Source of the DNA: a bacterium
GTDB lineage: Bacteria > Patescibacteriota > Minisyncoccia > UBA6257 > JAGOQP01
Direction: 5' to 3'
NCBI GenBank assembly: GCA_021812345.1
Contig: JAKANP010000001.1
Location: forward strand, 54,979 to 118,978
Length of the DNA: 64,000 nucleotides
In this document: in pieces, positions 3,390 through 28,903 of the stretch
Position numbering within the stretch: the first letter of the stretch is position 1
Layout of the letters: each line of letters begins with the position of its first letter
Made by a program: the position numbers and the translations under genes
Notes under the pieces: generated by a model
What the model was told of the DNA's origin: nothing
Databases searched by the model: none
What the model saw: only the letters and a program-made list of their open reading frames with translations

Positions 3390-4103
3390 ATGTCTAATTT
3401 ACCATCAAATCAAAAAGTGGTCGTTGTCATGGGACCGCCCGGTTCGGGAAAAGGAACTCAAGCAAATCTTATAGCCGGGAAACTTAATCTTTACCATCTT
3501 GATACGGGAAAGTTTCTTGAGGAATTAGTCCATGACCCAAAACTTCAAAACAACCCGGAGGTTCAAAAGGAAAGAGAAAATTTTGACGGAGGAATTTTGG
3601 TAAGCCCAATTTTCTTTTTAAAATGGGTTACTGAAAAAATAAATGAATTATACAAAAATGGCGAAGGAATAATTTTCAGCGGATCGCCCAGGACTATGCT
3701 TGAAGGTTTTGGGGACGAGGGTCATAAGGGGCTTATGGATGTGTTGGAGCAAGATTATGGAAGAGAAAATATACTCATCTTTCTTCTTCAAATTCCTGAC
3801 GAGGAATCAATAAGAAGAAACAGTTCGAGATTGATTTGTTCGGTTTGCGGCAATGCGATGATAAGCGCTCTTAATTTGAATTTGCCTCAATGCCCGGTTT
3901 GTGGAGGAGCGTTTAGGAAAAGAACGCTGGACAAGTCGGATGTTATAAAAGTTCGTTTGGAAGAATATAGAAACAGAACATTTCCGGTTGTTGCGGAATT
4001 GGAAAAACGCGGGTTTGTGGTTAATAGAATCGACGGCACTCCGATGCCGTATAAAGTTTTTGAGAACATCACTTCAATTATCAATGATATTTTTAAAAAG
4101 TAA
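3390..4103 (+). CDS. adk: adenylate kinase with Cys4 zinc-lid
   Basis: GPPGSGKGTQ P-loop. LID with CSVCG...CPVCGG. Confidence 0.9.
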   Translation: MSNLPSNQKVVVVMGPPGSGKGTQANLIAGKLNLYHLDTGKFLEELVHDPKLQNNPEVQKERENFDGGILVSPIFFLKWVTEKINELYKNGEGIIFSGSPRTMLEGFGDEGHKGLMDVLEQDYGRENILIFLLQIPDEESIRRNSSRLICSVCGNAMISALNLNLPQCPVCGGAFRKRTLDKSDVIKVRLEEYRNRTFPVVAELEKRGFVVNRIDGTPMPYKVFENITSIINDIFKK

Positions 4104-4842
4104 GGAAGAAATAGAAATTTTGAAAGAATCGGGTAAAATTCTTTCATCGATATTAAAGACTTTAAAAAAGAAAGCGCTTGTTGGCGTCAACCTTCTTGAG
4201 CTTGAAGATTTATCGAGAAAAATGACAAAAGAGTTAGGGGCCAGGCCGTCGTTTTTGGGATATAAGCCGGATGGCGCCGACAGACCTTATCCGGCGGCTC
4301 TTTGTTTGTCTTTGAATGAAGTTATCGTTCATGGCGTTCCTAAAAATTACCAATTAAAATCGGGAGACATTCTAAAAATAGATATGGGAGTTGTTTATGA
4401 AGGAATGTATACGGATTCGGCTGTTACTGTCGGTATTGGCGAAGTTTCGTCTGTAGCAAAAAAACTTATGAATTCTACAAAAAAAGCTCTTGATGAAGCA
4501 ATTAAAATGGTAAAAATCGGAAGACATATAGGAGATATAGGATGTGTCGTAGAAAAAAGAGCGGATAAAGATGGTTTCGAGGTTATAAAAAATCTTACCG
4601 GACACGGAGTCGGTTATGAGGTTCATGAAGATCCGGTTATTTTAAATTTTGGGAGAAAAAACACCGGACCGGAGATAAAAGAAGGGATGGTTCTTGCCAT
4701 AGAGCCGATGTTCAGTATTTCAAGCGATCAGATTGTTCAAAACCAAGATGAGAGCTATTCATCCGCTGATGGGAGTTTGACCGCCCAATTTGAACACACT
4801 ATTGCGGTTACAAAAAATAAGATTATCGTTTTGACGGAGTAG
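4084..4842 (+). CDS. map: methionine aminopeptidase type I
   Basis: Pita-bread fold motifs (VIVHGVP, DIGCVV..GHGVG.EVHEDP, LAIEPM). The ATG at 4084 overlaps the adk 3' end by 20 nt and is preferred to the upstream alternative start in the ORF track. Confidence 0.87.
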   Translation: MIFLKSKEEIEILKESGKILSSILKTLKKKALVGVNLLELEDLSRKMTKELGARPSFLGYKPDGADRPYPAALCLSLNEVIVHGVPKNYQLKSGDILKIDMGVVYEGMYTDSAVTVGIGEVSSVAKKLMNSTKKALDEAIKMVKIGRHIGDIGCVVEKRADKDGFEVIKNLTGHGVGYEVHEDPVILNFGRKNTGPEIKEGMVLAIEPMFSISSDQIVQNQDESYSSADGSLTAQFEHTIAVTKNKIIVLTE

Positions 4843-4887: not shown

Positions 4888-6159
4888 ATGAATTATTTTT
4901 ACGCCACCATGGTATCGGTCGTAGGAACAAATTTTATTAATTTTTTTAGCTCTGTTTTTGAAGCAATGTCCTTAAAAGACGTGGCTGATATTTTTTTAAC
5001 TGCCTTGATTATAGGAGGTTTTTTGTGGCTTTTTAAAAAAACTAAAAGTGTTTCTTTGGCTTTAACTTCTATTATCGGTTTTATAATATTTTATTCTGTT
5101 GCTTATTGGCTCAATCTTTACACGGTTTTAAGTATTGCTAATGCTTTTTTGGGAAGCATTGTCGTTATTTTAGTAATTGTTTTCCAAAAAGAATTAAGAC
5201 GTTTTGTCGAGTGGATAGATATTTCTGCCATCAGAAAGAGATTCTCAAAAAATATAAAAGACCAAAAAATTTCCGGAGCTAAAGACGTGATTGATGTTTT
5301 GGCTTCAACTTTTTTTACGATGGCAAAAAGAAAAATAGGAGGATTAATTGTTTTTCCAGGAATAGAGTCAATAAGTTCTTTTGTAAGCGGAGGATTTGAT
5401 TTGGATGGAAAAATTTCCGAGCCGTTGCTTTTGAGTATTTTTGACACCTCATCTCCCGGACATGACGGGGCAATAATTGTAGAGCAAGATGTGATAAAAA
5501 AATTTGGAGTCGTTTTGCCACTATCGGAAAGAGATGATTATGAAAAATTAAAACATCTTGGAACTCGTCATCGATCGGCTCTCGGACTTTCTGAAAGAAC
5601 CGACGCTCTTTGCGTGATTGTTTCTGAAGAAAAAGGAAGAGTTTCTTTGGCTTTTGACGGAGCGATTGAAGTTGTCGAATCTCCGGAAGATTTAAAAAAT
5701 AAATTAAAGACGTTTTTGAATGTTTCCGATACTAACGCCTCAAAATCGAGATTGTTAAGCGCTCAATTATTTTCAAAAATAAGAAAAAATATACCCAATG
5801 CGTTACTGGCATTGTTTTTGGCTTTAATTTTCTGGCTTTTTATAAGTTATCCTCAGCTTGGTATAATTCAAAAAGATATTTTAGCTCCGGTAGTATTTAC
5901 TAATGTCCCCGATAATGCCACTATTGACCGACTGACATATTCTCAAGTGGACCTGACTTTTTTGGGGGCGGAAAAAGATTTCCAATTGCTTGGAACAAAT
6001 AATATAAAAGCGGTGGTTGATATATCAAGTAAAGTTAATAATACGACTACTCAATATTTGTCGGTTTATCTTAAGCCGGATAATATACAATACCCGCCAT
6101 CCTTGAAATTGATCAAGATAGATCCCAGTCAGATAGAATTTAGAATTAATTTCAAATAA
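4888..6159 (+). CDS. cdaA: diadenylate cyclase CdaA fused to a C-terminal TM + YbbR/CdaR-like domain
   Basis: Three N-terminal TM helices. DAC domain with DGA (HDGAIIV) and RHR (GTRHRSALG) motifs. A fourth TM follows, then a beta-rich YbbR-like segment (...VVFTNVPDN..IDRLTYSQVDLTFLGAEKD...). Confidence 0.8.
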   Translation: MNYFYATMVSVVGTNFINFFSSVFEAMSLKDVADIFLTALIIGGFLWLFKKTKSVSLALTSIIGFIIFYSVAYWLNLYTVLSIANAFLGSIVVILVIVFQKELRRFVEWIDISAIRKRFSKNIKDQKISGAKDVIDVLASTFFTMAKRKIGGLIVFPGIESISSFVSGGFDLDGKISEPLLLSIFDTSSPGHDGAIIVEQDVIKKFGVVLPLSERDDYEKLKHLGTRHRSALGLSERTDALCVIVSEEKGRVSLAFDGAIEVVESPEDLKNKLKTFLNVSDTNASKSRLLSAQLFSKIRKNIPNALLALFLALIFWLFISYPQLGIIQKDILAPVVFTNVPDNATIDRLTYSQVDLTFLGAEKDFQLLGTNNIKAVVDISSKVNNTTTQYLSVYLKPDNIQYPPSLKLIKIDPSQIEFRINFK

Positions 6160-6162
6160 TTT

Positions 6163-6912
6163 ATGGATTTAAAGCCGTATCTTTCGGTCATTATTCCCGC
6201 CTATAATGAATCAAGAAGATTGCCCCTTACATTAATTGACGTCGATAAGCACTTACAGAACGTTCCATTTAATTACGAAATTATTGTCGTTGATAATAAC
6301 TCTAAAGATGCCACAAAGGAGATAGCTTTAAGATTCTCTTCAATTATAAAAAATCTTAAGGTTTTTGAATGCAAAACTCAAGGAAAAGGAGCGGCGGTGA
6401 AAACCGGCATGGAACAGGCCAAGGGGCAAATAAGACTGTTTTTGGATGCCGACAATTCGGTTTCTATTGATCATTTTTTTAAAATGAAGCATTTTTTTGA
6501 TGAGGGCTATGACGTGGTTATTGCCTCAAGAAATATTCAGGGATCAAAAACCGATCCTCCTCAACCTTGGTACAGAATTTTTTTGGGAATTTTGGGGAAT
6601 GCTTTTATAAGAATTATTCTTTTGCGCGGAATTAAAGATACTCAATGCGGATTTAAAATTTTTAGCGAAAAGGCGGCATCAAAAATTTTTTTGTTAACGG
6701 ATATTTCAGGATGGGGATTTGATATTGAAGTTCTGTCTCTTGCAAAAGATATGGGATTTAAAATAAAAGAAGCTCCTGTTTTATGGATTAATTCGTCCGG
6801 ATCAAAACTCGGTCCCGGAGCCTATTTTCAGGCGCTTTTTGATGCAATAAAAATAAAATCAAGAATGATTTCAAAGTATTATCTTAAAAAATCATCAAAA
6901 ATCAGGGCTTAA
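6163..6912 (+). CDS. GT2 family glycosyltransferase (polyprenol-phosphate sugar synthase-like, DPM1/ArnC/GtrB type)
   Basis: LSVIIPAYNES...IIVVDNNSKDAT...DAD are GT-A DXD-family signatures. Confidence 0.8.
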   Translation: MDLKPYLSVIIPAYNESRRLPLTLIDVDKHLQNVPFNYEIIVVDNNSKDATKEIALRFSSIIKNLKVFECKTQGKGAAVKTGMEQAKGQIRLFLDADNSVSIDHFFKMKHFFDEGYDVVIASRNIQGSKTDPPQPWYRIFLGILGNAFIRIILLRGIKDTQCGFKIFSEKAASKIFLLTDISGWGFDIEVLSLAKDMGFKIKEAPVLWINSSGSKLGPGAYFQALFDAIKIKSRMISKYYLKKSSKIRA

Positions 6913-9909: not shown

Positions 9910-11820
9910 TTATTTTAGTTTGTAAATAAAAATCGAAGTTCCGGCTCTAGCATAAGGATTCTGATAATTATTTATCCATGGGTAAGAATCTTCCTGGTTA
10001 ATCTGATAGTTGTTAGTCGGATTAGCCTTTGCCGATTCTATTGAGTTTATTGATACCGCATACCAATCAATTCCTTGACTACTCGGATCTCCTTTGGCTG
10101 AATTCCATTCGACTGCTTTATCTTTCAGATAATATTCGACATTTCCTCCGCCAAAATAATCCACTGCTATTTTTTGTATATTATTTTTATCCACAAAATC
10201 TTTTAGCCGCTTAAGATCCTGTCCCCAATCATAATTGGAATCGGTGGCGATTTTATATCCATTCCAAATACCTCCTCCAAAATAATTATAGTAGGAAAGA
10301 AAATACGGATAAGCCGATACGGTATCGGCAATTAACCAAATAGATATTAAAAAAATAGCAAAAATTTTCAAAGATTTTTTTAAAAAAGTTTTAAAAGCGG
10401 ATGAAATTTTATTTATTGTTGAAATATATTCAAAATCCGGTTTTGAGTTAAACCATTTTTTTATTGAACTGGCGGAAAGAATATATAAAAACGGCAAAGT
10501 AGGGAGCACATGCCTAAGACCTATGTTGAGGTTGCTCCTTACGCTATAGAACCAATAAAACAAAACCATTGCAATCATCGAAAATTCGTAGAAATTAAAT
10601 TCAAGATAATTAAACAATCTTTTTCTTTTTTTATCTTTGGCGTTATCAAAAAATCTCTTAATTGCCAGATATAATCCCAATACAATTGTTATTAAAATCG
10701 GTATCGGCTCCTTCGTTAAAAATAATATCGGAAAATAATACCACCATCCGGATGAGCTTATATTGCCCATAAAATAAGAAGTGTTGCCCCCGGCCGCTCT
10801 CTGGATAACCATAAGAATCCCTAAAATATATTGGCCGAATCCTCTTAGTATGGGTTTAGATGACATCCAAATATCAATATCAGCTATGCATCTTAGTCCG
10901 ATTTGATTTGGCAAACATTTTGACCAACTCGGATCCGGTCCTCCCGAAAAAGAATTCAATAAAAAAACGGTATCCGAGTTTTGTTTTGGTATTGGATAGT
11001 TGAATGTAAACAAAACATAAACAGCCCAAACCAATATATAACCGATAACCAAAATTTTAATAAACGAAAGAAAATATTCCCATAAAACTTTCAATGATTT
11101 TTTTGAAAATATCTTATATTCCAATTCGTTTGATTTGAGCCACCATTTGACCAGAGTCAATAACAAAAACAACGGCACCAGAATAACAGTCGAAAATTTC
11201 AGAAGTTGTGAAATGCCAAATACTATTCCCGCTATCCAAAATGTTTTTTTGTTGGGAGAGGTAAGATATTTGGCATAAGCCCAAATTCCTATAAGAAAAC
11301 CCAAAGCGGCGCCAACATCGGTAGTTACATAATGTCCATTAGCTAAAAAATTAGGAGAAAGACCGACAAAAAACGAAGGCAACAGAGCCCAAATCGGCCC
11401 CATGATTTCTTTTGCCCAAAAATAAACCAAGATTATAAAAATCAAAGTTAGAATTATAGGAAACAATCTTGCCAAAAATATTATTAAATCCGCTTTTTGT
11501 CCGTTATCTTTATAAAGAAAATCGGTTCCGGCGTTCCATTGGCTGTTAACATCCGATGTCCATAATGATTGATTGGTTGGAAAATTGAGTCCTAAAAAAA
11601 GAAGCGGAGTTGCCGCAAGCGCTTTTAACAAGGGAGGATGTTCGGGATTCAGGCGATAATCAAGATATCTTACATAACTATAGCCGGCAGGAATGTGGGC
11701 TAATTCATCCATAACGGCGGAATCTTGGCTTGAAACTTTAAGCATTAAAAATCCCGATGAAATTACAATCAAAGATAAAATGATTAAACCAAAAGAATTG
11801 GCGGAAAGCGCTTTTTTCAT
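9910..11820 (-). CDS. GT-C fold membrane glycosyltransferase (PMT/ArnT GT39/GT83-like)
   Basis: 636-aa polytopic protein. The N-terminal first loop carries the DE motif (MDELAHIPAGYSY) typical of PMT/ArnT-type GT-C enzymes. Many TM helices and a large C-terminal extracytoplasmic domain. Confidence 0.68.
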   Translation of the reverse strand: MKKALSANSFGLIILSLIVISSGFLMLKVSSQDSAVMDELAHIPAGYSYVRYLDYRLNPEHPPLLKALAATPLLFLGLNFPTNQSLWTSDVNSQWNAGTDFLYKDNGQKADLIIFLARLFPIILTLIFIILVYFWAKEIMGPIWALLPSFFVGLSPNFLANGHYVTTDVGAALGFLIGIWAYAKYLTSPNKKTFWIAGIVFGISQLLKFSTVILVPLFLLLTLVKWWLKSNELEYKIFSKKSLKVLWEYFLSFIKILVIGYILVWAVYVLFTFNYPIPKQNSDTVFLLNSFSGGPDPSWSKCLPNQIGLRCIADIDIWMSSKPILRGFGQYILGILMVIQRAAGGNTSYFMGNISSSGWWYYFPILFLTKEPIPILITIVLGLYLAIKRFFDNAKDKKRKRLFNYLEFNFYEFSMIAMVLFYWFYSVRSNLNIGLRHVLPTLPFLYILSASSIKKWFNSKPDFEYISTINKISSAFKTFLKKSLKIFAIFLISIWLIADTVSAYPYFLSYYNYFGGGIWNGYKIATDSNYDWGQDLKRLKDFVDKNNIQKIAVDYFGGGNVEYYLKDKAVEWNSAKGDPSSQGIDWYAVSINSIESAKANPTNNYQINQEDSYPWINNYQNPYARAGTSIFIYKLK

Positions 11821-15174: not shown

Positions 15175-15203
15175 AAACCCTTTTAAAAAGGGTTTTTATT
15201 TTG
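15175..15203. terminator. Bidirectional terminator between convergent genes
   Basis: aaaccctttt a aaaagggttt hairpin flanked by T-runs on both strands. Confidence 0.4.
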
Positions 15204-16755
15204 GCTCAAGATATAAAACAACGGCATTTTTATCGTTGATTTCTTTTTCTTGAGATGGAAGTAAATAATAAATATTTTTCTCTTTTTGTTTTTCTTGAGT
15301 AAAGGTGTCGGTTATAAACATAATTGTTTCTGCCGGCATCGGTATTCCGTTCACCAAAACTCCATCGGCATTAACAATTACATATTTTTTGATGCTTTGC
15401 GGCATTTGATTCAGTTGATTGCCAAGCTGAACATAGTTTTCACTGAAAGCGTTGGCAACGTTGGGATTTTGCGCCCAAAAAATAAAATAGCTCGCATAAG
15501 ATTGAAAGATCAAAAATACTCCCACAATAATCAGAGTTGCGTAAAAAATTTTTTCTTGAGAACATTTCTTTTGAAAATAATTTATAAAAGCCAGAGCGCC
15601 CAATCCGGCAAGCATATATGACGGGGGAATCATAAGGATTGAACGTAAAGCGTGCGGAATTGATTCGTTTGAAAATACGACCGGCAACATTGCCATAAAC
15701 ATCCAAAATATCAATATCCACCAAAAAAATTCAAATTCTTTATTTTTTTCCGATTCCTCGCTTTCATCTTGTTTTTCGCTTAAATTAATAGCAGACGATT
15801 TGATTTTAGGAATCAATGAAAATATTCCGATTATAAAAAATATTCCGACAAACCAATATATTTCCGGGGATCCGGAAATATTGTGCCTCCAATTTGAATC
15901 TCCCTTAAAATCGAACATTCCCAAAGTTTTTATTATATTGGATGATAAATCCTTTAATGGAGATGCGGACGAAGTGATGGATATTTCGGACGTTCTTCCA
16001 AAAAAGTCTCCCGGATTTTTTATAAAATATATTCCCAAAGGAGAAAATACAATCAATGAAGCTATAACGTAAAAAGCAAAACTTGTAAAAATTTTTTTAA
16101 AATCTATTTTATAAATCCATTTATACAGCAAATAAATAAATATGATCAGAATCGGAGTGGCTCTGTAGGCGATATAAGAATACATTCCCAGTCCATAAAT
16201 GCTTCCTCCCAAAACACTCATTAAAATTATTTTTTTGTAATTTATTTTCTGTTCTTTTAATAATTCAAGCGATAAAATCAGTAAATAAATTCCCCACACC
16301 AATATTGCCGGCGCCATTATCGCTCTAAATCCCATTCTTGAAAAATCAACATGCCAAAAACTGATGGCGGTAAAAAACGAAGACAAAAAAGCCACCAAAT
16401 GGGAATATTTTCTTTTTCTGAAGATGTATTGAGTTAAAAGATAAATTCCTAAAATTGTTATCACTCCCCAAAAAGCGCTCTCGCTTCGCAACACCCAAGG
16501 AGCATGAACTTTAAAAATATATAACAAAAATGACTGAATATTGATAAATAATCCTTCCCGCCCGTTATTTTCAGGATAAAAAACTTTGTAATCTCCCGTG
16601 GATAGAGCTTGTGAGGCATTATTTCCGTTGATTGCTTCATCGGGATAGAGTCCCGGCGGAGTAATCGATAAATTGTAGAATCTAAAAAAGATTGCTATAA
16701 TTAAAACCGTAATAAGCCCATATTTTCTGAAGAAAGAATAAAATTTTTCGTTCAT
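15196..16755 (-). CDS. GT-C fold membrane glycosyltransferase (ArnT/PMT_2-like)
   Basis: 519-aa polytopic protein. The first periplasmic loop has YPDEAINGNNA and NNGREGLF motifs typical of ArnT/PMT_2 family transferases. Confidence 0.7.
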   Translation of the reverse strand: MNEKFYSFFRKYGLITVLIIAIFFRFYNLSITPPGLYPDEAINGNNASQALSTGDYKVFYPENNGREGLFINIQSFLLYIFKVHAPWVLRSESAFWGVITILGIYLLTQYIFRKRKYSHLVAFLSSFFTAISFWHVDFSRMGFRAIMAPAILVWGIYLLILSLELLKEQKINYKKIILMSVLGGSIYGLGMYSYIAYRATPILIIFIYLLYKWIYKIDFKKIFTSFAFYVIASLIVFSPLGIYFIKNPGDFFGRTSEISITSSASPLKDLSSNIIKTLGMFDFKGDSNWRHNISGSPEIYWFVGIFFIIGIFSLIPKIKSSAINLSEKQDESEESEKNKEFEFFWWILIFWMFMAMLPVVFSNESIPHALRSILMIPPSYMLAGLGALAFINYFQKKCSQEKIFYATLIIVGVFLIFQSYASYFIFWAQNPNVANAFSENYVQLGNQLNQMPQSIKKYVIVNADGVLVNGIPMPAETIMFITDTFTQEKQKEKNIYYLLPSQEKEINDKNAVVLYLEPK

Positions 16756-16780: not shown

Positions 16781-17176
16781 ATGGATTCAAATATTGTTCA
16801 TAATATCAATTATCACGAGTTGGCTCAAGAAGTTAATGTTAAAAAAGAAGCCTCTCCCGAATTGTCGCATAAAGAAATAGTATCGAATGTTTTGGAAAAA
16901 AGCGGAATGCCTCCGATGTCTCAGCCAATTACGCCCGCTCCTTCGGTAACTCAATCTTCAAACAAAAACGATGATTCAATTTTGCCGGATTATGCGAAGA
17001 AATCCGATCCGGGTATTCAAAATAAAATTCAACATTTGGTGTCTTTAACTTTGGAAAAGGGATTGAAAGAGGGAATTAATTTTGCAAAAAAAGAGGATCC
17101 ATTTGTCATGGACGCCTATCACGATTCTCTTTCGGATGTTTTGGTTGATGAAATGAAAAAAAGAAAACTTATATAA
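16781..17176 (+). CDS. hypothetical protein, translationally coupled to the downstream ATPase
   Basis: Its stop overlaps the start of the next gene at 17176. No recognisable domain. Confidence 0.4.
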   Translation: MDSNIVHNINYHELAQEVNVKKEASPELSHKEIVSNVLEKSGMPPMSQPITPAPSVTQSSNKNDDSILPDYAKKSDPGIQNKIQHLVSLTLEKGLKEGINFAKKEDPFVMDAYHDSLSDVLVDEMKKRKLI

Positions 17177-19539
17177 TGCAAAGCGTTATTATCACTTTAA
17201 TTATTGTTGTGAGTTTGGCCTCGTTTTTGGGCATAATTTGGTATGTTCTTTTAAAACAACAGAGGGAAAAAATAAAAAAATCTTTAAATTTAAAATTGTT
17301 AACAATCAAAATGCCCCGTCCGGATTTAACGGATTCCAGAGAGCATAATTTCAAAGAAGAAATAAATTTTTCGGAACAGCTTTTCAGTTCTCTTGCCTCG
17401 CTCAAGGAGATGACTGCTTTTGAAGTTGCAGTCCATCATGTCGGCGAGGAAATATTTTTTTATGTGGCGGTTCCTGAAAAAATGGTTTCTTTTATCAGTC
17501 GTCAGATAGAAGGAATTTTTAAGGACTCTCAAGTAACGGCTTCTCCCGAATATAATATTTTTCAACCGGGAGGATTTAACGCCGGATTTTATTTAAAACA
17601 AGACGCTCATTATTCGTTGCCGTTAAGAACTTATCTTGAATCCGAAGCCGATACTTTTTCTCCAATAGTCAGCGGACTTTCTAAAATTAATGAAATTGGT
17701 GAAGGCGCCGTTATCCAAGTTTTAATAAAATCCGCCCCGGAAAGTTATAAGAAAGGCATAGTTTCAATAATAAATTCTTTAAAAAAGGGAGAGAGTTTCA
17801 AAAAAATTGCCTCCACTAAAGCCATCGATTTAAAAGGTTGGGCTGATGTTTTAAAAGATAAAAAACCTGAAGATGATAAAAAACCTTCCATTATCGATGA
17901 AGAATCAATAAAATCGCTTGAAAGAAAAATTTCAAAACCTCTTTTTAAAGTTAATTATCGCGTATTGGTTTCTGCCATCAATCAATTTCAAACGGAGAAT
18001 ATTTTAGACGGTATTGCCGGGTCATTTAATCAATTTGAAGCGCCATTAAAAAATAAATTTAAAATAAATAAAGTAAAAAATTTCCAAAAATTCGCTTATC
18101 AGTTTTCTTTCAGAGATTTTGACGATTCTCAAGCGATGATTTTAAACACCGAAGAGATGGCCGGAATTTTTCACATGCCTTCGTCTTCCACATTATCTCC
18201 AAAGATCAAATGGATAAAATCAAAAGAATCTCCTCCGCCCTCAGAACTTCCCGATAACGGAACTTTGATTGGCCAAAGCAATTTTAGAGGGGAAGTAAAA
18301 CCGGTTTACATAACCGAAAGTGACAGACGCAGACACGTTTATTCTATCGGTCAAACCGGTGTCGGTAAAACAACATTGATGGTGGATATGATTTGGGATG
18401 ATATAAAAAAAGGCAAAGGAGCTTGTTATATTGACCCTCACGGAGATGCCATTGAAACTATTTTAGGATTGATTCCTAAAGAAAGGATGGACGATGTCAT
18501 TGTTTTTGATCCGGGATACACAAAAAAACCTATAGGATTGAACATGCTTGAATACAATTTTGATCATCCCGAAGAAAAAACTTTTATTGTTAACGAAATT
18601 CAGGGAATTTTTAATCGATTGTTTTTAGCTGAAACCATGGGCCCGATGTTTGAACAATATATGCGCAATTCGCTTTTATTGCTGATGGAAGATGCCGTCA
18701 ACGAGCCGGCTACATTTATTGATGTCCCGAGAGTTTTAACCGACGAAGAATTTCGTATTAAAAAATTATCAAGAATTACCAATCCGGTGGTTATAGATTT
18801 TTGGACAAAGGAGGCGAGCAAAGTCGGAGGTGAAGCGTCTTTGGCGAATATGGCTCCGTATATTACTTCCAAATTTAATAATTTTATTGCCAATGATTAT
18901 TTGAGGCCGATTATCGGACAAGCTAAATCGTCTTTTAATTTCAGGCAAATAATGGATGAGAAAAAAATTCTTTTGGTTAATTTATCCAAAGGAAAGATAG
19001 GAGATATCAATGCCGGACTTCTTGGAATGATAATCACGGGAAAATTGCTTATGGCGGCGCTTTCTCGGGTGGATATGGCCGAATCGGAAAGAAATGATTT
19101 TTATCTTCACATCGACGAGTTTCAAAACTTTACCACCGATTCCATTTCCACTATTTTATCGGAAGCCAGAAAGTATCGTCTTAACTTGAATATAACCCAT
19201 CAATTTATTGCTCAGCTTGAAGAAAAAATAAGAGATTCTGTTTTTGGAAACGTCGGTTCTATGGTTGTTTTCAGAGTTGGCGCTCAGGATGCGGAATTTT
19301 TAATCAAGCAATTTGAACCCGTGTTTACGCAATCGGATTTGATGAATATAGACAACTTTAATGCTTACGCCAAAATTTTGATTAACAATCAAACGTCCAA
19401 GCCGTTTAATATGAAAACGGTAATGTATCCCAAGCCGGATGTTGAGCTGGCTCAAAAAATAAAAGAGCTTTCTTTCTTAAAATACGGAAAAGACAGAGTG
19501 GAAGTAGAAAAAGAAATTATGGAAAAACTGAGAAGTTGA
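17176..19539 (+). CDS. membrane-anchored P-loop ATPase of the FtsK/HerA/VirD4(TraG)-like type (T4 coupling-protein-like)
   Basis: N-terminal TM. Walker A SIGQTGVGKTT, Walker B FYLHIDEFQNF. The C-terminal RKYRLNLNITHQFIAQLEEKIRDSVFGNVGSMVVFRVG resembles the TraG/TraD C-terminal motif. Confidence 0.6.
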   Translation: MQSVIITLIIVVSLASFLGIIWYVLLKQQREKIKKSLNLKLLTIKMPRPDLTDSREHNFKEEINFSEQLFSSLASLKEMTAFEVAVHHVGEEIFFYVAVPEKMVSFISRQIEGIFKDSQVTASPEYNIFQPGGFNAGFYLKQDAHYSLPLRTYLESEADTFSPIVSGLSKINEIGEGAVIQVLIKSAPESYKKGIVSIINSLKKGESFKKIASTKAIDLKGWADVLKDKKPEDDKKPSIIDEESIKSLERKISKPLFKVNYRVLVSAINQFQTENILDGIAGSFNQFEAPLKNKFKINKVKNFQKFAYQFSFRDFDDSQAMILNTEEMAGIFHMPSSSTLSPKIKWIKSKESPPPSELPDNGTLIGQSNFRGEVKPVYITESDRRRHVYSIGQTGVGKTTLMVDMIWDDIKKGKGACYIDPHGDAIETILGLIPKERMDDVIVFDPGYTKKPIGLNMLEYNFDHPEEKTFIVNEIQGIFNRLFLAETMGPMFEQYMRNSLLLLMEDAVNEPATFIDVPRVLTDEEFRIKKLSRITNPVVIDFWTKEASKVGGEASLANMAPYITSKFNNFIANDYLRPIIGQAKSSFNFRQIMDEKKILLVNLSKGKIGDINAGLLGMIITGKLLMAALSRVDMAESERNDFYLHIDEFQNFTTDSISTILSEARKYRLNLNITHQFIAQLEEKIRDSVFGNVGSMVVFRVGAQDAEFLIKQFEPVFTQSDLMNIDNFNAYAKILINNQTSKPFNMKTVMYPKPDVELAQKIKELSFLKYGKDRVEVEKEIMEKLRS

Positions 19540-19582: not shown

Positions 19583-19655
19583 GCCACCTTAGCTCAGCTG
19601 GTAGAGCAGCGCTTTCGTAAAGCGAAGATCCGCGGTTCAAATCCGCGAGGTGGCT
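19583..19655 (+). tRNA. tRNA-Thr (anticodon CGU)
   Basis: 73-nt cloverleaf: acceptor GCCACCU/AGGUGGC, D-arm GCUC/GAGC, anticodon loop UUCGUAA, T-arm CGCGG-UUCAAAU-CCGCG. There is one G.A mismatch at the top of the anticodon stem. Confidence 0.8.
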
Positions 19656-23302: not shown

Positions 23303-24277
23303 ATGAACAAAAAAATTAATATTTTATTTTTATCGCTCTTTGCCTTGATCGGAGTTGTTTTTGTAATTCCTCATTCCGTGTTAGCTGATGGACCGGAGTT
23401 TTTACCTCCTGCATGTGGACAATACGATGGAAATCAACGTACTTGTAGTTTTTATACGGTTAGTCGTGATATGAATATAACTCCCGAACTTACAAACTCA
23501 TTTGTGTTTGTAACTCATTTGAGAAATAAAGATATGATAGGATATGTAGATCAAAGTCTAACAAATGCGGACTATAAGTTGCAGAATTTTGTCTCAACGA
23601 CAGGGATTATTGATGAAGCAGTTGATAAAAATTATTTTAATGAAAATGGCGGAATAAATAATCTTTTTACAAAAACAGATATTATAAAAGTAGCAGCGTC
23701 TTCTTCGTGTCCGAGTGGATATCAAATAATCGACGTTCCCATAGACCAGAATGGAAATAGTACATGCGCCAAAGAAGCAGCTCCAAAACCAGAGACAAAA
23801 AAACATATGTTTAGTATATGGGTAGTAGCAACAGATAAATACGATTCTCCTTCCGCTAAACCCGGAAATTTGGTGCCTTGGAATCAGGGAGACCACATTG
23901 ATCCATTTGTTCAGACAACTTTAGGTAATCCAATTACTATAAAAATATTAAGATACAGTCCTCTGGGAATTTTGAATAATAAAATAATTTTTTATCGCTC
24001 TCAAGAAATTTATTATATTAATCAAGGAACCGAAAAAACCATCTCCAGACAAACAAACTTATCGGCACCTACCGTTCAAGGGATCAAACCATTTTCGGCG
24101 GCACAAACAAATGTTGTAACAAATATCCAGGCAAATACAACTACCACAACTGTTTCTGCTACAACTAGTCAAAATGACAACAAGCCGGTTACCGTCAATT
24201 CTCCATCTTTAATTGGTTATATAAAATCTTTTTTCTCCGGATTTGGTAATCTTGTGCGAATACTTTTCCGCTTCTAA
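23303..24277 (+). CDS. secreted hypothetical protein (signal peptide, Cys pairs, C-terminal hydrophobic tail)
   Basis: N-terminal MNKKINILFLSLFALIGVVFVIPHSVLA signal-like segment. No catalytic motif recognised. Confidence 0.5.
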   Translation: MNKKINILFLSLFALIGVVFVIPHSVLADGPEFLPPACGQYDGNQRTCSFYTVSRDMNITPELTNSFVFVTHLRNKDMIGYVDQSLTNADYKLQNFVSTTGIIDEAVDKNYFNENGGINNLFTKTDIIKVAASSSCPSGYQIIDVPIDQNGNSTCAKEAAPKPETKKHMFSIWVVATDKYDSPSAKPGNLVPWNQGDHIDPFVQTTLGNPITIKILRYSPLGILNNKIIFYRSQEIYYINQGTEKTISRQTNLSAPTVQGIKPFSAAQTNVVTNIQANTTTTTVSATTSQNDNKPVTVNSPSLIGYIKSFFSGFGNLVRILFRF

Positions 24278-24823: not shown

Positions 24824-25912
24824 ATGATACTACTGCCCAAGATTGCTATTCGTGGCTTAGGGCGAGAAATTATTTTTATTCAAGGGGGAATGGGTGCAGG
24901 TATTTCTCTTGCGCCTCTTGCCGGAGCGGTTGCTCGGAGAGGTGGCGTTGGAACGGTATCTTTTGTCGCCTTGGATAGATTTGTTGAGCGTCGCATAGGC
25001 CATAAAGTGAGCCATCATGAAGCCGCCGAACTTGAAATTCAAGAAGCGCGACGAATTTCCTGTGGCAATGGCGCAATCGCCATTAATTGTATGGTCTTGA
25101 TTGAAAGGACATATATTCCTTCAATAGAAGGCGCAATTGATGGCGGAGTAAATGCAATTATTGCCGGTGCGGGTTTGCCTATGACTTTGCCTGAAATTGT
25201 AGATAATGCACCCGTTTCGCTAATTCCCATCATTTCTTCCGGTAGGGCATTGGAACTAATATGCCGTCGCTGGAGCCGTTATGAAAAAATACCCGACGCA
25301 GCAATTCTTGAAGGGCCACTTGCGGGAGGACATCTTGCTTTTAGAGCTGAAGATATTTTCAAACAAGAATTTCAGTTGGAAGCGATATTTGAACGAGTTA
25401 AAATAATCGCTCAGAAAAACGGAAATTTTCCGATAATTGTGGCTGGTGGCATTTATACTCGTGAAGATATTATTTGGTGGATTAATGCCGGAGCCGATGG
25501 TGTACAGATGGGGACTCGCTTTGCCGCAACACACGAAAGTGGCGCATCAAAAGAGTTTAAAAATGCCATTGTTGCTTGTTGCTCAGAGGATATAGAAATA
25601 GCAACCAACCCGGGATCACCGGCAGGATTACCATTTCGTGTTATCCGTACTTCACCTGGGTACCAACAAGCACTGATTCATGGAAGAAAAATTTTATGCG
25701 ATAAGCAATATCTATTGAATAAAGACAAGAGCGGCCGTTTGGGATGCCCCGCTTTGGATGGTAATGATGCTTTTTGTATCTGTAACGCTCTTTTATCCGC
25801 AGCGGATTGTAATAACGTATCCGAATTGCCGATCTTTACCGTTGGAGCGAATGCGGCTCGTGTAGATCGCATTCTCTTCGTTGATGAATTGATGGATGAA
25901 TTAATAGGGTGA
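24824..25912 (+). CDS. NMO-family FMN oxidoreductase (nitronate monooxygenase / FabK-like TIM barrel) with C-terminal Cys-rich extension
   Basis: IIFIQGGMGAGISLAPLAGAVARRGGVGTV matches the NMO/FabK GGMG.G.S N-terminal signature. GG-rich RBS upstream. GC is about 48% against a background near 35%. Confidence 0.72.
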   Translation: MILLPKIAIRGLGREIIFIQGGMGAGISLAPLAGAVARRGGVGTVSFVALDRFVERRIGHKVSHHEAAELEIQEARRISCGNGAIAINCMVLIERTYIPSIEGAIDGGVNAIIAGAGLPMTLPEIVDNAPVSLIPIISSGRALELICRRWSRYEKIPDAAILEGPLAGGHLAFRAEDIFKQEFQLEAIFERVKIIAQKNGNFPIIVAGGIYTREDIIWWINAGADGVQMGTRFAATHESGASKEFKNAIVACCSEDIEIATNPGSPAGLPFRVIRTSPGYQQALIHGRKILCDKQYLLNKDKSGRLGCPALDGNDAFCICNALLSAADCNNVSELPIFTVGANAARVDRILFVDELMDELIG

Positions 25913-25990
25913 CGCTTAGCTAATTTCTACTAAGCGTCTTTTTTTAAATAATTTAAAATAAAAAATTTATCATATTAATGATACAAATTA

Positions 25991-26566
25991 TTAAATTAAA
26001 TTATCTTTGTTTTTTATAAAAACCAAAAAGAATCCGATTACTCCGCCTAATAAATCAAAACTTAAATCTCCCATCGTATCAAGATTGGTCGGTTGGTCTA
26101 ACAAGTTAAGATGAACTCTCCAATTTACCAATTTCTCTCCTAAAATATCCAAACGAAAGGCGTCATGAGCGCATTCATACATTTCCCAAGCTACCGATAC
26201 CAAAGCTATGATTGCTATGATTTCAATAAACATTTTCCATTTTTCTTCTTTCAATAATGAATATTTCGGATAAAGCTTATCAAACAGAATAAGTCCGATG
26301 GCTAAAGCAACTCCAAAAAATAAATGTTCAAAAGCGTCATATCCAAAAAATCCCTCAATGCATCCTAAATATTTTGAACAAACATTATTTCCCGCCCAAT
26401 CGTAAAGAAGCTCTCCCAAGCTGGTGATTAAAAGCCAGACCGCCGTAAAATAAAAAAGTAAAATTTTTATTTTTTTTATTTCTGTTCCTTTTGATAATTT
26501 TGTAAAAAAAATAACTATCGCCGAAATTACAAAAGATAAAATTATTACATATGTTGGCGTATCCAT
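25991..26566 (-). CDS. hypothetical polytopic membrane protein
   Basis: 191 aa with multiple TM helices and conserved Cys/His (YECAHDAF). Confidence 0.45.
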   Translation of the reverse strand: MDTPTYVIILSFVISAIVIFFTKLSKGTEIKKIKILLFYFTAVWLLITSLGELLYDWAGNNVCSKYLGCIEGFFGYDAFEHLFFGVALAIGLILFDKLYPKYSLLKEEKWKMFIEIIAIIALVSVAWEMYECAHDAFRLDILGEKLVNWRVHLNLLDQPTNLDTMGDLSFDLLGGVIGFFLVFIKNKDNLI

Positions 26567-26691
26567 TTGTTATTACTTATTAATACGGATAAAAAGTGAT
26601 TTTGTTTTCTTTACGGCGAGTATGTGACATATATGGACAAAAATCATTTTTATATTATACTCTTTTCAGATATTTGAAAAAGGAGGGCTCT

Positions 26692-27714
26692 GTGAAAAAG
26701 GGCTTTTATCTGGAGAATTGGCACAAGTTGTCTTTGCCTGTAGTTCAAATTGCCAACGAATTAAATCCGTTTTATAACAAGGGAGTTGTTTTTTATGCGG
26801 CATTGGCTAACCATTTGCCTTATGAAAACATAAAATTTATTACGGTTTATGGGCTTTTACAAAACGCATTGGATGTTGGGGCTCTTCAAAAGACAAAGAT
26901 TTTGGTTGAGGCAACCTCCGGCAATACCGGCGTGGCGTTGGCTTTGATGGCAAAACATTTTGGGATTAACAAGGTTAAGCTTGTGGTGGCTCCCGATATC
27001 CCCGATGGAAAGCGTTATCCGCTGATTCTTGCCGGAGCGGAATTGATTTATCCCAAGGAAGGATTGAGTGCTATCGCAACTGCCAGAGAAATGGGAGGCG
27101 GGGGATGGAAGCCGGATGGTTGGCAACCTGATAGCGGATATTTGAATCTTGACCAATATGCCAATCCTTTTGGCGCCGAACCTCATTCAACTTTTACCGC
27201 TGATAAGATAGTAGAAAAGCTTTTTTATAACACTCCGTCTATTTTTGTTTCCGGCATTGGGACCGGAGGGACTATGGTTGGTATCGGTAAATATATCAAG
27301 CGCAATAATATGCGCGCGGTAAATATCGGCGTGCTTTTGAAGGCGGGGAGTGAAATTCCCGGAGTAAGAGATTTGAATCGGATGAAAGAAATAACTTTGC
27401 CTTGGAGAGATTTTTCAGACGGCATTGTTGAAATAGGTTCAAGGCAATCGTATTTGGCGAGTCTGTGGCTTAACTGGGTTATGGGTATTACTCCCGGTCC
27501 AAGCAGCGGCTTTGCTTATTTGGGAGCTCTGAAGTTTATCAAGAGCCTGATTGATTCCAAGTTGGATTCTTTTAGGGATGATCATGACAAGGTTAGAGTT
27601 GTTGTTATTTTTCCCGACGGAAATCGCCCCTACGGAGATAGGTATATGGCAAACTTGCCCTTTGAGTGTTTGAGTCCGGCAACAGCGCCATTGCCTTGGA
27701 ATTGGAAAGTATAG
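26692..27714 (+). CDS. PLP-dependent enzyme of the cysteine synthase / Trp-synthase-beta (fold type II) family
   Basis: VEATSGNTGVALALMA matches the CysK SGNTG loop. Glycine-rich GIGTGGTMVGIG PLP-phosphate loop. GTG start at 26692 with AAGGAGGG 7 nt upstream. GC is about 47%. Confidence 0.72.
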   Translation: MKKGFYLENWHKLSLPVVQIANELNPFYNKGVVFYAALANHLPYENIKFITVYGLLQNALDVGALQKTKILVEATSGNTGVALALMAKHFGINKVKLVVAPDIPDGKRYPLILAGAELIYPKEGLSAIATAREMGGGGWKPDGWQPDSGYLNLDQYANPFGAEPHSTFTADKIVEKLFYNTPSIFVSGIGTGGTMVGIGKYIKRNNMRAVNIGVLLKAGSEIPGVRDLNRMKEITLPWRDFSDGIVEIGSRQSYLASLWLNWVMGITPGPSSGFAYLGALKFIKSLIDSKLDSFRDDHDKVRVVVIFPDGNRPYGDRYMANLPFECLSPATAPLPWNWKV

Positions 27715-27755
27715 TTTTGATTTTTAATTTATCCGCCCGAAAACGGCGGATTTTT

Positions 27756-28487
27756 TTATTTTTTTTCGCGCAAAATACAAAACGGAGTCATCTCGTCAGC
27801 TTGTCCTAAGGGATTATCTTTAAATGCCTGCTGAATAAATTTTTCGGTAATTGATCTATTTGATTTTCCGACAGAAAAGGCTCCTAAATAATTGGCGTCC
27901 AATATCACAGCTTCGTTTCCAAATTCTTTTTTTATTTTTTTTGCCGCGCCATCCGGATCCATCGGCGCTAATTTTGCATGATGAGCATATTCCAAAATAT
28001 TAAATGAGAGGGGACAGTCGATGGATTTTGCTCTTTTGCCGCAAATCACGTAAAACAAACCTTTGATTCCGAGCGGGCGAGTAATTGCCGAAATTGCGGC
28101 CGCCAAAAAAACTCTCGGATATCCGGCTTCTTCTATTAAAAGTTGCATTGCCATCGGAGTGCCGTGGCCAAAACCTCTAAAATCTTTTGTTCCGTATTTA
28201 TTGTTGACTTTTCTTGCCAAGAATCTGGCAAAAGAAGTCGGTTTAATATCGTTTAGATTTATAATTCTTCCTTGAGTGATAGCCAAGACCTTTTCGCTTA
28301 CAAAAATTATATCGTTTGGCTCCAGATAAGGCGTTATATATTTTTTTAATTCTTCAATAATATCGCTTTTTTCGGTGATGAGGGCTGTTCTTATGGGCAA
28401 TCTTAAATATGTTTTTGAACCGATTTGAATTTCCAGATTTTTCCCCTTGTTGGGTTTTATTTCTTTGTTGTTGATTTCATTTTTCAT
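27756..28487 (-). CDS. CofE-like protein (F420-0:gamma-glutamyl ligase family fold)
   Basis: IIFVSEKVLAITQGRI and surrounding pattern resemble the CofE/F420-ligase family. The identification is by pattern only. Confidence 0.5.
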   Translation of the reverse strand: MKNEINNKEIKPNKGKNLEIQIGSKTYLRLPIRTALITEKSDIIEELKKYITPYLEPNDIIFVSEKVLAITQGRIINLNDIKPTSFARFLARKVNNKYGTKDFRGFGHGTPMAMQLLIEEAGYPRVFLAAAISAITRPLGIKGLFYVICGKRAKSIDCPLSFNILEYAHHAKLAPMDPDGAAKKIKKEFGNEAVILDANYLGAFSVGKSNRSITEKFIQQAFKDNPLGQADEMTPFCILREKK

Positions 28488-28525
28488 CGGTTGTATTATA
28501 ATATTAATTCAAATAATATCAAAAT

Positions 28526-28903
28526 ATGTTAATAAGAGTTTGTTTATCAAAAATTCACAGAGCAACAGTAACCGAAGCCGATTTGAATTATGTCGGTTCA
28601 ATTACGATTGATAGCGAACTTTTGGAAAAAAGCGGAATGAGGCCTTTTCAATATGTTAATATCACCAATGTCTCAAACGGCGTTTTTTGGCAGACATATA
28701 TAATGCCGGGTAAAAAAGGAAACGGAGATATTTGCTTAAATGGCCCTCCTGCAAGGCATTTTCAACCGGGAGATAAAATTATAATTTTAGCCGAAAGTCT
28801 GGTTGAGCCGTCCGAAATGAGAGATTTAAATCAAACTATTGTCTTTGTGGATGATAAAAACAAAACAACCGAAGTTAAGATAAATAAAATGTCTCAATTA
28901 TGA
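28526..28903 (+). CDS. panD: aspartate 1-decarboxylase (pyruvoyl-dependent)
   Basis: MLIRVCLSKIHRATVTEADLNYVGSITID... matches the PanD N-terminus, including the GS self-cleavage site. HFQPGDKIIIL is also present. Confidence 0.85.
   Translation: MLIRVCLSKIHRATVTEADLNYVGSITIDSELLEKSGMRPFQYVNITNVSNGVFWQTYIMPGKKGNGDICLNGPPARHFQPGDKIIILAESLVEPSEMRDLNQTIVFVDDKNKTTEVKINKMSQL

What the first reader, a model, noticed from the sequence alone, without database searches (positions are those of the whole stretch)
4888..6159. Single-polypeptide fusion of diadenylate cyclase CdaA with a YbbR/CdaR-like regulatory domain
In Firmicutes cdaA and its regulator cdaR (YbbR domains) are separate genes of the cdaA-cdaR-glmM operon. 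Here the DAC domain (DGA, RHR motifs) is followed in the same ORF by a fourth TM helix and one YbbR-like beta domain, placing the regulatory module in cis. This implies an extracytoplasmic-sensing, self-regulated c-di-AMP synthase. glmM is not adjacent; a GT2 gene follows instead.
Basis: partly seen in the sequence, partly recalled or inferred. Interest (0 to 1): 0.5.

Follow-up and report, generated by a model that had tools for sequence, protein, structure and literature searches.

The report
CdaA cyclase fused to YbbR domain
The gene really does encode a membrane-bound c-di-AMP synthase joined in one chain to a single outward-facing YbbR domain like that of its usual partner CdaR, but this fused design is common in many bacterial phyla and so is an ordinary member of a known kind.

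Summary
Window 4888..6159 (+) is one intact 423-aa ORF. It has three N-terminal TM helices, a DAC domain (119 bits) with HDGA and TRHR motifs, a linker helix, a fourth TM helix (residues 302-320) and one beta-rich C-terminal domain (326-422). The query alone misses Pfam's YbbR cut-off (15.3 vs 22.3 bits). YbbR identity is still established: 58/119 full-length relatives hit YbbR, a C-terminal profile finds solved YbbR domains first (2l3u 1.7e-5; Listeria CdaR 5hqh 2.7e-4), and an AF2 model (pLDDT 90.6) matches six YbbR structures first. It is not an artefact, because the identical protein lies on 9 contigs.

It is not new. 60 of 80 GTDB species loci carry the same fusion, across Parcubacteria, Saccharibacteria, Desulfobacterota (cultured Citrifermentans, Desulfobulbus, Malonomonas), Myxococcota, Planctomycetota, Verrucomicrobiota and others. 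Most unfused relatives have cdaR immediately downstream. CdaA-CdaR fusions are already mentioned in a 2023 review.

Most likely function: a CdaA-type cyclase whose activity is modulated in cis by a minimal CdaR module (TM + YbbR domain I) facing the cell wall. This is inferred, not shown. It lacks the disordered tail reported to be the wall sensor of B. subtilis CdaR. No glmM, phosphodiesterase, receptor or c-di-AMP riboswitch was found in the window.

The parts
4888..6159 (+). Complete ORF (423 aa + stop): fused CdaA-type diadenylate cyclase / TM / YbbR protein
   Evidence: identical product on 9 contigs
4960..5196 (+). N-terminal membrane domain (residues 25-103; TM helices about 31-49, 54-72, 80-98), CdaA_N type
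   Evidence: Pfam CdaA_N 21.3 bits, below cut-off 23.8; 112/119 relatives match CdaA_N; hydropathy; helices in the AF2 model; aligns to the TM region of full-length CdaA 9g69_C
5314..5664 (+). DAC (diadenylate cyclase) catalytic domain, residues 143-259
   Evidence: Pfam PF02457 119.4 bits; solved CdaA structures are the top PDB hits; block pLDDT mostly above 90
5461..5472 (+). H-D-G-A active-site motif (H192 D193 G194 A195)
   Evidence: read from the sequence; invariant in 119 relatives; aligned to HDGA of 9g69_C
5563..5574 (+). T-R-H-R active-site motif (T226 R227 H228 R229)
   Evidence: read from the sequence; R227 and H228 invariant, T226 and R229 at least 90% conserved; aligned to GTRHR of 9g69_C
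5743..5790 (+). Basic cytoplasmic linker helix (residues 286-301, SRLLSAQLFSKIRKNI) preceding TM4
   Evidence: helix 286-300 in the AF2 model; Lys/Arg residues on the DAC side of TM4, read from the sequence
5791..5847 (+). Fourth transmembrane helix (residues 302-320), counterpart of the N-terminal anchor of CdaR
   Evidence: hydropathy 2.28; helix 302-319 in the model; present in 116/120 homologues; W316 at least 90% conserved
5863..6153 (+). Single extracytoplasmic YbbR domain (residues 326-422); the chain ends 1 residue later, with no disordered tail
   Evidence: Pfam YbbR 15.3-16 bits for the query; 58/119 and 29/38 relatives hit YbbR; profile hits to 2l3u, 5hqh, 3lyw, 2kpu; AF2 pLDDT 90.6; Foldseek top six all YbbR; tail analysis
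6163..6912 (+). Downstream GT2 gene (249 aa), 3 nt after the stop; DPMS/GtrB/ArnC-like polyprenyl-phosphate glycosyltransferase type. A probable operon partner in this lineage only; a functional link is not shown
   Evidence: Pfam Glycos_transf_2 98 bits; best PDB hit 5mlz dolichol-P-mannose synthase, E=3.4e-17; synteny kept at 59% and 43% identity and lost at 39%; absent next to fused genes in other phyla

Best explanation
The gene encodes a membrane-integral CdaA-type diadenylate cyclase that makes c-di-AMP from two ATP in the cytoplasm. At its C-terminus, in the same chain, it carries a minimal version of its usual partner CdaR: one transmembrane helix plus one YbbR domain on the outer face of the membrane. 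The inferred topology is N-terminus out, three TM helices, cytoplasmic DAC domain, basic linker helix, TM4, YbbR domain outside facing the peptidoglycan-containing envelope. By analogy with split CdaA/CdaR pairs, where the two proteins contact each other through their TM segments, TM4 is expected to pack against the CdaA TM bundle. The ectodomain would then bias the oligomeric or active state of the DAC domains according to some envelope condition. Shown here: the architecture, the homology of each module, conservation of catalytic residues, and the equivalence of the fused module to TM + YbbR domain I of adjacent CdaR proteins. Inferred: the topology, cyclase activity, and any regulation at all. 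The protein belongs to a large, old subfamily of fused CdaA-YbbR cyclases found in many phyla.
For: DAC 119 bits with HDGA and TRHR conserved. TIGR00159 CdaA is the best NCBIfam family. Four hydrophobic helices, with Lys/Arg on the DAC side of TM3 and TM4. Full-length AF2 model pLDDT 83.6 with the predicted helices and a beta-rich C-terminal domain. YbbR identity: 58/119 relatives hit PF07949 with best E=4.7e-12; the C-terminal profile hits 2l3u at 1.7e-5, Listeria CdaR 5hqh at 2.7e-4, plus 3lyw and 2kpu; Foldseek's top six are all YbbR, with TM-score 0.81 (target-normalised) to 3lyw, followed by L25/CTC. An HMM built from the fused C-terminal domains recognises the first YbbR domain, just after the TM anchor, of the ORF immediately downstream of cdaA in 15 of 19 unfused loci, and of standalone TM+YbbR proteins. 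The window encodes peptidoglycan machinery (mraY, murG, ftsW, S11 carboxypeptidase, M23 peptidase), so a wall exists to be sensed. Literature: CdaR binds CdaA via the TM domains and modulates its activity (PMC10243994; PMC10636490; bioRxiv 10.64898/2026.09.06.749708).
Against: No experiment or computation here shows regulation. The query's own YbbR score is below Pfam's cut-off, and its TIGR00159 score is below the equivalog cut-off. In B. subtilis the element reported to sense the wall is CdaR's disordered region (Brogan et al. 2025, as cited). This protein has none, and it has one YbbR domain where Firmicute CdaR has three or four. So the sensing mechanism, if any, may differ. The direction of CdaR's effect on CdaA is inconsistent between species. 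I could not inspect model coordinates to test TM4 packing. No c-di-AMP receptor, phosphodiesterase or riboswitch was found in the 64-kb window, so the rest of the pathway is unseen.
Confidence: 0.7

Rival explanations
1. The TM4-YbbR module is a localisation or anchoring device and not a regulator. It would tether or target the cyclase to a particular envelope site, such as the division septum or nascent peptidoglycan, without changing catalytic rate.
For: In S. pneumoniae CdaA and CdaR are enriched at mid-cell. YbbR has the L25-like fold, a binding fold. There is no IDR sensor in this protein. The function of YbbR domains is still described as unknown.
Against: In split systems CdaR changes c-di-AMP output when co-expressed or depleted. 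Localisation and regulation are not mutually exclusive.
Confidence: 0.15
2. The fusion is an artefact: adjacent cdaA and cdaR genes joined by a sequencing, assembly or frameshift error, or a recent stop-codon loss with no functional meaning.
For: cdaA and cdaR commonly abut or overlap in split loci, so a single-base error could join them.
Against: The identical 423-aa product is on 9 contigs from different assemblies. 116 of 120 homologues down to about 33% identity keep the same layout. 60 of 80 GTDB species loci are fused. Fused forms make a nearly clean clade on a DAC tree, with 2 state changes in 81 tips.
Confidence: 0.01
3. The C-terminal domain is not a YbbR homologue but an unrelated small beta domain (for example L25/CTC-like, POTRA-like or lipocalin-like) that resembles YbbR by chance.
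For: The query alone scores below Pfam's gathering threshold. The C-terminal profile also gives weak hits to fatty-acid-binding proteins at E about 0.006.
Against: YbbR is the only Pfam family hit by many members (29/38; every other family by one member). Four different solved YbbR chains are among the top five profile hits. Foldseek's top six are all YbbR, at better E-values than L25/CTC. The same HMM finds the CdaR encoded next to cdaA in split loci.
Confidence: 0.03
4. In this lineage the cyclase works with the adjacent GT2 and the nearby PMT_2 transferase. Either the soluble DPMS/GtrB-like GT2 replaces GlmM as the cytoplasmic partner of the DAC domain, or the ectodomain is O-glycosylated by the GT2 + GT-C pair.
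For: A 3-nt gap separates the two genes. Synteny with GT2 and PMT_2 is kept at 59% and 43% identity. The GT2 is of the polyprenyl-phosphate sugar synthase type. S. pneumoniae CdaR is glucosylated by GtrB plus a GT-C enzyme.
Against: The query has no Ser/Thr-rich tail. The linkage is lost at 39% identity and is absent in nine other phylum-level examples. The cluster is flanked by housekeeping genes (map, greA, lysS), so the synteny may be incidental.
Confidence: 0.1

Closest known systems
CdaA (DacA/YbbP) membrane diadenylate cyclases of Firmicutes (B. subtilis, L. monocytogenes, S. aureus; PDB 4rv7, 6hvl, 6gyw, 7ojs, full-length 9g69)
   Same: Three N-terminal TM helices followed by a cytoplasmic DAC domain with HDGA / TRHR / S-x-E residues. 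Alignment to full-length 9g69_C spans residues 18-262. TIGR00159 is the best NCBIfam family.
   Different: About 140 extra C-terminal residues (linker helix, TM4, YbbR). Scores below the TIGR00159 equivalog cut-off (167 vs 188.8). There is no cdaR or glmM downstream.
CdaR (YbbR) regulators of CdaA (B. subtilis YbbR, L. monocytogenes Lmo2119 PDB 5hqh, S. pneumoniae SP_1560 PDB 4qdy, D. hafniense Dhaf_0833 PDB 3lyw/2kpu/2l3u)
   Same: A single-pass TM anchor followed by an extracytoplasmic YbbR fold. The fused module aligns with TM + YbbR domain I of CdaR.
   Different: One YbbR domain where Firmicute CdaR has three or four. No C-terminal Ser/Thr-rich disordered region. Covalently attached to the cyclase, not encoded separately.
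CdaA-CdaR fusion proteins noted in some streptococcal strains (UniProt A5LQF8, E1M7C3, V8IIN0; Turner group review, PMC10243994)
   Same: CdaA and CdaR are in one polypeptide, joined through CdaR's TM helix.
   Different: The review calls these 'large fusion proteins' of CdaA with CdaR in individual strains of species that are otherwise split. The present protein belongs to an old, stable subfamily with a single YbbR domain. I did not retrieve those sequences.
Fused CdaA-YbbR proteins of Desulfobacterota and other phyla, e.g. Citrifermentans bremense R1 (L040), Desulfobulbus elongatus DSM 2908 (L078), Malonomonas rubra DSM 5091 (L024), Desulfopila sp. IMCC35006 (L037)
   Same: Same order CdaA_N - DAC - TM - YbbR. 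The C. bremense protein passes Pfam cut-offs for all three domains. They group with the window protein apart from split forms on the DAC tree.
   Different: 27-35% identity. Many are about 480 aa with a longer C-terminal region. Different gene neighbours. To my knowledge none has been characterised experimentally (no paper found).

Membership tests
CdaA-type diadenylate cyclase | DAC (DisA_N, PF02457) domain above the curated cut-off | tested here: met
   119.4 bits vs 27
CdaA-type diadenylate cyclase | Catalytic DGA and RHR motifs (plus the preceding His/Thr and the S-x-E) | tested here: met
   H192-D-G-A195, T226-R-H-R229, S246, E248, read from the sequence and conserved in 119 relatives
CdaA-type diadenylate cyclase | Three N-terminal TM helices (CdaA_N, PF19293) | tested here: inconclusive
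   Three hydropathy peaks and alignment to the TM region of 9g69_C. However, Pfam CdaA_N scores 21.3 bits, below the 23.8 cut-off, for the query. 112/119 relatives match at E<=0.01.
CdaA-type diadenylate cyclase | NCBIfam TIGR00159 equivalog score at or above its cut-off | tested here: not met
   167.4 bits vs 188.8, though it is the top-scoring family. It is therefore a CdaA-like subfamily and not a strict equivalog.
CdaA-type diadenylate cyclase | Synthesises c-di-AMP from ATP | not testable with these tools
   Needs an enzyme assay or heterologous expression
CdaR / YbbR-domain regulator | YbbR domain (PF07949) above the curated cut-off | tested here: not met
   15.3-16 bits vs 22.3 for this sequence
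CdaR / YbbR-domain regulator | YbbR homology at family-profile level | tested here: met
   58/119 and 29/38 relatives hit PF07949. Profile hits to 2l3u at 1.7e-5, 5hqh at 2.7e-4, plus 3lyw and 2kpu.
CdaR / YbbR-domain regulator | YbbR fold | tested here: met
   AF2 pLDDT 90.6. Foldseek top six are all YbbR structures; 3lyw TM-score 0.69 (query-normalised) and 0.81 (target-normalised).
CdaR / YbbR-domain regulator | Single TM anchor immediately before the first YbbR domain, with the domain outside the cytoplasm | tested here: met
   TM4 at 302-320, then YbbR at 326-422. Lys/Arg residues precede TM4 and DAC must be cytoplasmic. The topology is inferred, not measured.
CdaR / YbbR-domain regulator | Three to four tandem YbbR domains (Firmicute CdaR) | tested here: not met
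   One domain only; the chain ends at residue 423
CdaR / YbbR-domain regulator | C-terminal Ser/Thr-rich disordered region (the reported wall sensor / glycosylation site) | tested here: not met
   One residue follows the last modelled strand. Only 8/119 relatives have a tail of at least 10 aa that is at least 35% Ser/Thr/Pro.
CdaR / YbbR-domain regulator | Modulates CdaA activity through TM-TM contact | not testable with these tools
cdaA-cdaR-glmM operon (Firmicute type) | glmM downstream | tested here: not met
   GT2, greA and lysS follow. No glmM-like (phosphoglucosamine mutase) Pfam family appears among the window's annotated genes.

The most novel reading that the evidence does not exclude
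The IDR-less, single-YbbR fused cyclase may be the minimal, possibly ancestral, CdaA-CdaR signalling unit. In this Parcubacteria lineage it would be functionally coupled to lipid-linked glycosylation instead of to GlmM. The co-transcribed soluble DPMS/GtrB-type GT2 (with the conserved nearby PMT_2 GT-C enzyme) would either bind the DAC domain as GlmM does in Firmicutes or glycosylate the ectodomain, tying c-di-AMP output to envelope glycan supply in ultra-small bacteria.
Probability: 0.08. Interest if true: 0.55.

Novelty: new member of a known kind. Interest (0 to 1): 0.2.

Why it matters
The value is mainly practical. It corrects the impression that cdaA and cdaR are always separate genes. 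A fused CdaA-TM-YbbR form is the norm in Parcubacteria and common in Desulfobacterota, Planctomycetota and other phyla, yet databases label it only 'diadenylate cyclase' or 'TIGR00159 family'. How CdaR controls CdaA is still unresolved, so a natural single-chain version reduced to one TM helix and one YbbR domain could be a convenient construct for structural and biochemical work. It also suggests that TM + YbbR domain I is the core of the CdaA-CdaR interface. For this window it adds nothing unexpected.

Tried and rejected
1. Frameshift or assembly artefact: rejected.
2. Recurrent, sporadic fusion and fission: I expected fused and split forms to intermix because Desulfobulbaceae show both. The DAC-domain NJ tree separates them with only 2 state changes, so I favour an old fused subfamily. 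The tree is crude (NJ, midpoint root, about 170 columns).
3. IDR-based wall sensing as in B. subtilis CdaR: not applicable, because there is no tail.
4. A general GT2 linkage: only lineage-level synteny.
5. A c-di-AMP riboswitch in the window: none; only three tRNAs at Rfam gathering thresholds.
6. Phosphodiesterases, receptors, glmM or a separate cdaR in the window: none seen among Pfam-annotated genes. The ORF at 60394..61521 has only a weak purple-acid-phosphatase N-domain hit and is not a known c-di-AMP phosphodiesterase type.
7. Literature: the catalogue of DAC architectures (Galperin 2023, PMC10127676), Commichau 2019 (PMC6287462) and He 2020 (PMC7102992) are not held. I could not check whether the fused class already has a formal name. 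No paper links diadenylate cyclase, YbbR and Geobacter.
8. The AFDB50 fold library was unavailable, so UniProt/AFDB entries with the full architecture could not be listed.
9. The sources give no name for this exact protein.

Full report
OBSERVATION. Window 4888..6159 (+) is a single open reading frame of 423 codons with an ATG start and no internal stop. Pfam finds a strong DAC domain (residues 143-259, 119.4 bits). It also finds a near-threshold CdaA_N membrane domain (25-103, 21.3 vs 23.8 bits) and a sub-threshold YbbR match (334-405, 15.3 vs 22.3 bits, E=0.026) that covers positions 2-75 of the 81-position model. NCBIfam's best family is TIGR00159 (CdaA) at 167.4 bits, below its 188.8 equivalog cut-off. 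The catalytic H-D-G-A (5461-5472) and T-R-H-R (5563-5574) codons can be read directly from the sequence. These residues are invariant or nearly so in 119 relatives and align to the same motifs in full-length CdaA 9g69_C.

TOPOLOGY. A Kyte-Doolittle scan gives hydrophobic helices at 31-49, 54-72, 80-98 and 302-320, with Lys/Arg on the DAC side of TM3 and TM4. Since DAC needs cytoplasmic ATP and a single TM helix separates it from the C-terminal domain, that domain should lie outside the membrane. This topology is inferred, not measured.

NOT AN ARTEFACT. The identical 423-aa product is encoded on 9 contigs assembled independently (ENA, Logan, NCBI). 116 of the 120 closest homologues, down to about 33% identity, keep TM4 and a tail of at least 90 residues.

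IS THE C-TERMINAL DOMAIN YbbR? Yes, by three independent lines.
- Scanning 119 full-length relatives one by one, 58 hit PF07949 at E<=0.01 (best 4.7e-12). Of 38 diverse C-terminal fragments, 29 hit it at E<=0.1, and no other family was hit by more than one.
- A profile of the C-terminal fragments alone (A2) finds solved YbbR domains first in the PDB: 2l3u at 1.7e-5, Listeria Lmo2119 (CdaR) 5hqh at 2.7e-4, then 3lyw and 2kpu at about 6e-3. The full-length profile gives the same hits more weakly.
- An AlphaFold2 model of residues 321-423 is confident (pLDDT 90.6). Its six best Foldseek matches in the PDB are all YbbR-family structures (2kxy, 3lyw with target-normalised TM-score 0.81, 4qdy from S. 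pneumoniae, 2kq1, 2l3u, 2kpu). Ribosomal protein L25/CTC follows, which is the known structural relative of YbbR.
The full-length model (pLDDT 83.6) shows the expected order: helical N-terminal region, alpha/beta DAC, helix 286-300, helix 302-319, then seven strands.

HOW COMMON IS THE FUSION? Very common. A scan of one genome per GTDB species returned 80 loci. In 60 of them DAC and the YbbR-like domain lie in one reading frame. These include Parcubacteria/Nomurabacteria, Saccharibacteria, many Desulfobacterota, Myxococcota, Planctomycetota, Verrucomicrobiota, Fibrobacterota, Acidobacteriota, Binatia and Rhodothermales. Cultured isolates among them are Citrifermentans bremense R1, Desulfobulbus elongatus DSM 2908, Malonomonas rubra DSM 5091 and Desulfopila sp. 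IMCC35006.

The C. bremense protein passes Pfam's curated cut-offs for CdaA_N, DAC and YbbR together. Of 19 unfused loci, 15 have a TM + YbbR ORF abutting or overlapping the end of cdaA, which is the classical split cdaA-cdaR arrangement. The HMM built from the fused domains recognises the first YbbR domain of that ORF, right after its TM anchor.

An exhaustive HMMER search of 1.84 billion cluster representatives with the C-terminal profile gave 5,268 hits at E<=1e-3 and 786 at E<=1e-10. Of 143 new sequences among the top 150, 74 carry a DAC domain in the same chain (median length 400 aa). 31 are standalone membrane-anchored YbbR proteins with one to five repeats, 37 are short fragments, and one fits none of these classes.

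On a neighbour-joining tree of DAC domains, fused and unfused forms separate with only two state changes in 81 tips. So the fused type looks like an old, coherent subfamily and not repeated accidents. The tree is crude and the locus set is biased toward full-length matches, so the 60/80 ratio is not a population frequency.

LITERATURE. Reviews describe CdaA as 3TM + DAC. They describe CdaR as a TM anchor plus three or four extracellular YbbR domains that contacts CdaA through the TM segments, with activating or inhibiting effects depending on species (PMC10636490; PMC10243994; PMC8316131). PMC10243994 states explicitly that in some streptococcal strains CdaA and CdaR are fused (A5LQF8, E1M7C3, V8IIN0), and that AlphaFold models suggest CdaA's first TM helix contacts CdaR's TM helix.

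A 2026 preprint summarises Brogan et al. 2025: in B. subtilis an extracellular disordered region of CdaR senses peptidoglycan status and activates CdaA. The catalogue of DAC architectures (Galperin 2023) could not be read. I therefore cannot say whether the fused class already has a name. Public sources call relatives only 'diadenylate cyclase', 'CdaA', 'TIGR00159 family' or 'DisA nucleotide-binding domain protein', and give no name for this exact protein.

MECHANISM. Most likely (about 0.7) this is an active CdaA-type cyclase with a minimal CdaR module in cis. TM4 takes the place of CdaR's anchor and the single YbbR domain faces the wall. The window encodes MraY, MurG, FtsW, an S11 carboxypeptidase and an M23 peptidase, so peptidoglycan is made. 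Regulation itself is inference.

Two real differences from Firmicute CdaR weaken a simple transfer of mechanism. There is only one YbbR domain, and there is no disordered tail: the chain ends one residue after the last modelled strand. Only 8 of 119 relatives have a tail of at least 10 aa that is at least 35% Ser/Thr/Pro. An anchoring or localisation role is the main rival.

CONTEXT. The gene lies at the end of the ribosomal-protein/secY/adk/map cluster and is followed after 3 nt by a 249-aa GT2, then greA and lysS. The GT2's best solved relative is P. furiosus dolichol-phosphate mannose synthase (5mlz, 3.4e-17), then GtrB and ArnC. It is therefore a polyprenyl-phosphate sugar synthase type, but it lacks their C-terminal TM helices.

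The arrangement, including a PMT_2 (GT-C) gene a few kb downstream, is kept in relatives at 59% and 43% identity. It is lost at 39% and absent next to fused genes in nine other phylum-level examples, none of which has glmM either. S. pneumoniae CdaR is O-glucosylated on its Ser/Thr tail by GtrB plus a GT-C enzyme (PMC12041528). Since the present protein has no such tail, a functional link is only a low-probability lead.

No c-di-AMP riboswitch and no recognisable phosphodiesterase, receptor, glmM or separate cdaR was found in the window. The rest of the genome was not available.

VERDICT. The functional claim is plausible but untested. The architecture is a widespread, database-visible and literature-noted variant of the CdaA/CdaR system, so this is a new member of a known kind and of low interest.

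Noticed in passing
window 6163..6912 (+) and 9910..11820 (-): A soluble-looking DPMS/GtrB/ArnC-type GT2 (249 aa, no C-terminal TM helices; best PDB hit 5mlz) lies directly after the cyclase, with a PMT_2 (GT-C) gene nearby. The pair is syntenic with the cyclase in relatives down to 43% identity. Such GT2 + GT-C pairs O-glycosylate extracytoplasmic proteins, including CdaR, in streptococci.
   Followed up: partly
L044+L048, L043+L054, L042+L066 (GTDB loci): Three Desulfobacterota MAGs each carry two loci with fused CdaA-YbbR genes, i.e. apparent paralogues of the fused cyclase within one genome.
   Followed up: no
A1/A2 family members P0067, P0025, P0047, P0106, P0090, P0096, P0115, P0100: A minority of fused relatives (8 of 119) end in short Ser/Thr/Pro-rich tails after the YbbR domain. 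These resemble the disordered, glycosylated C-terminal tail of Firmicute CdaR. The window protein and its close relatives lack one.
   Followed up: partly
P0097, P0109 (about 483-496 aa), P0112 (557 aa) and many roughly 480-aa Desulfobacterota loci (e.g. L030, L037, L078): Longer fused forms have about 95 or more extra C-terminal residues, probably a second, more divergent YbbR-like domain. My HMM detected a second copy only in L048.
   Followed up: no
window 17176..19539 (+): A 787-aa ORF with weak hits to type IV secretion coupling-protein domains (TrwB_AAD_bind 23 bits, TraG-D_C 22 bits), followed by a tRNA at 19583..19655.
   Followed up: no
window 52113..54920 (-), 50919..51980 (-), 15196..16755 (-), 23303..24277 (+): Large ORFs (935, 353, 519 and 324 aa) with no Pfam family at all. 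They are called as genes on independent contigs.
   Followed up: no
Neither resembles a known c-di-AMP phosphodiesterase.
   Followed up: partly
window 24824..28903: A run of metabolic genes that I would not have expected in a small Parcubacteria-type genome: NMO/IMPDH-like oxidoreductase, PALP enzyme, an F420_ligase-family protein (27756..28487, -) and aspartate decarboxylase (28526..28903).
   Followed up: no
window 3390..4842: The mechanical ORF list starts map at a TTG at 3988, but the gene called on the public contigs starts at about 4084 and overlaps the end of adk by 20 nt. This is only a start-codon annotation point.
   Followed up: no
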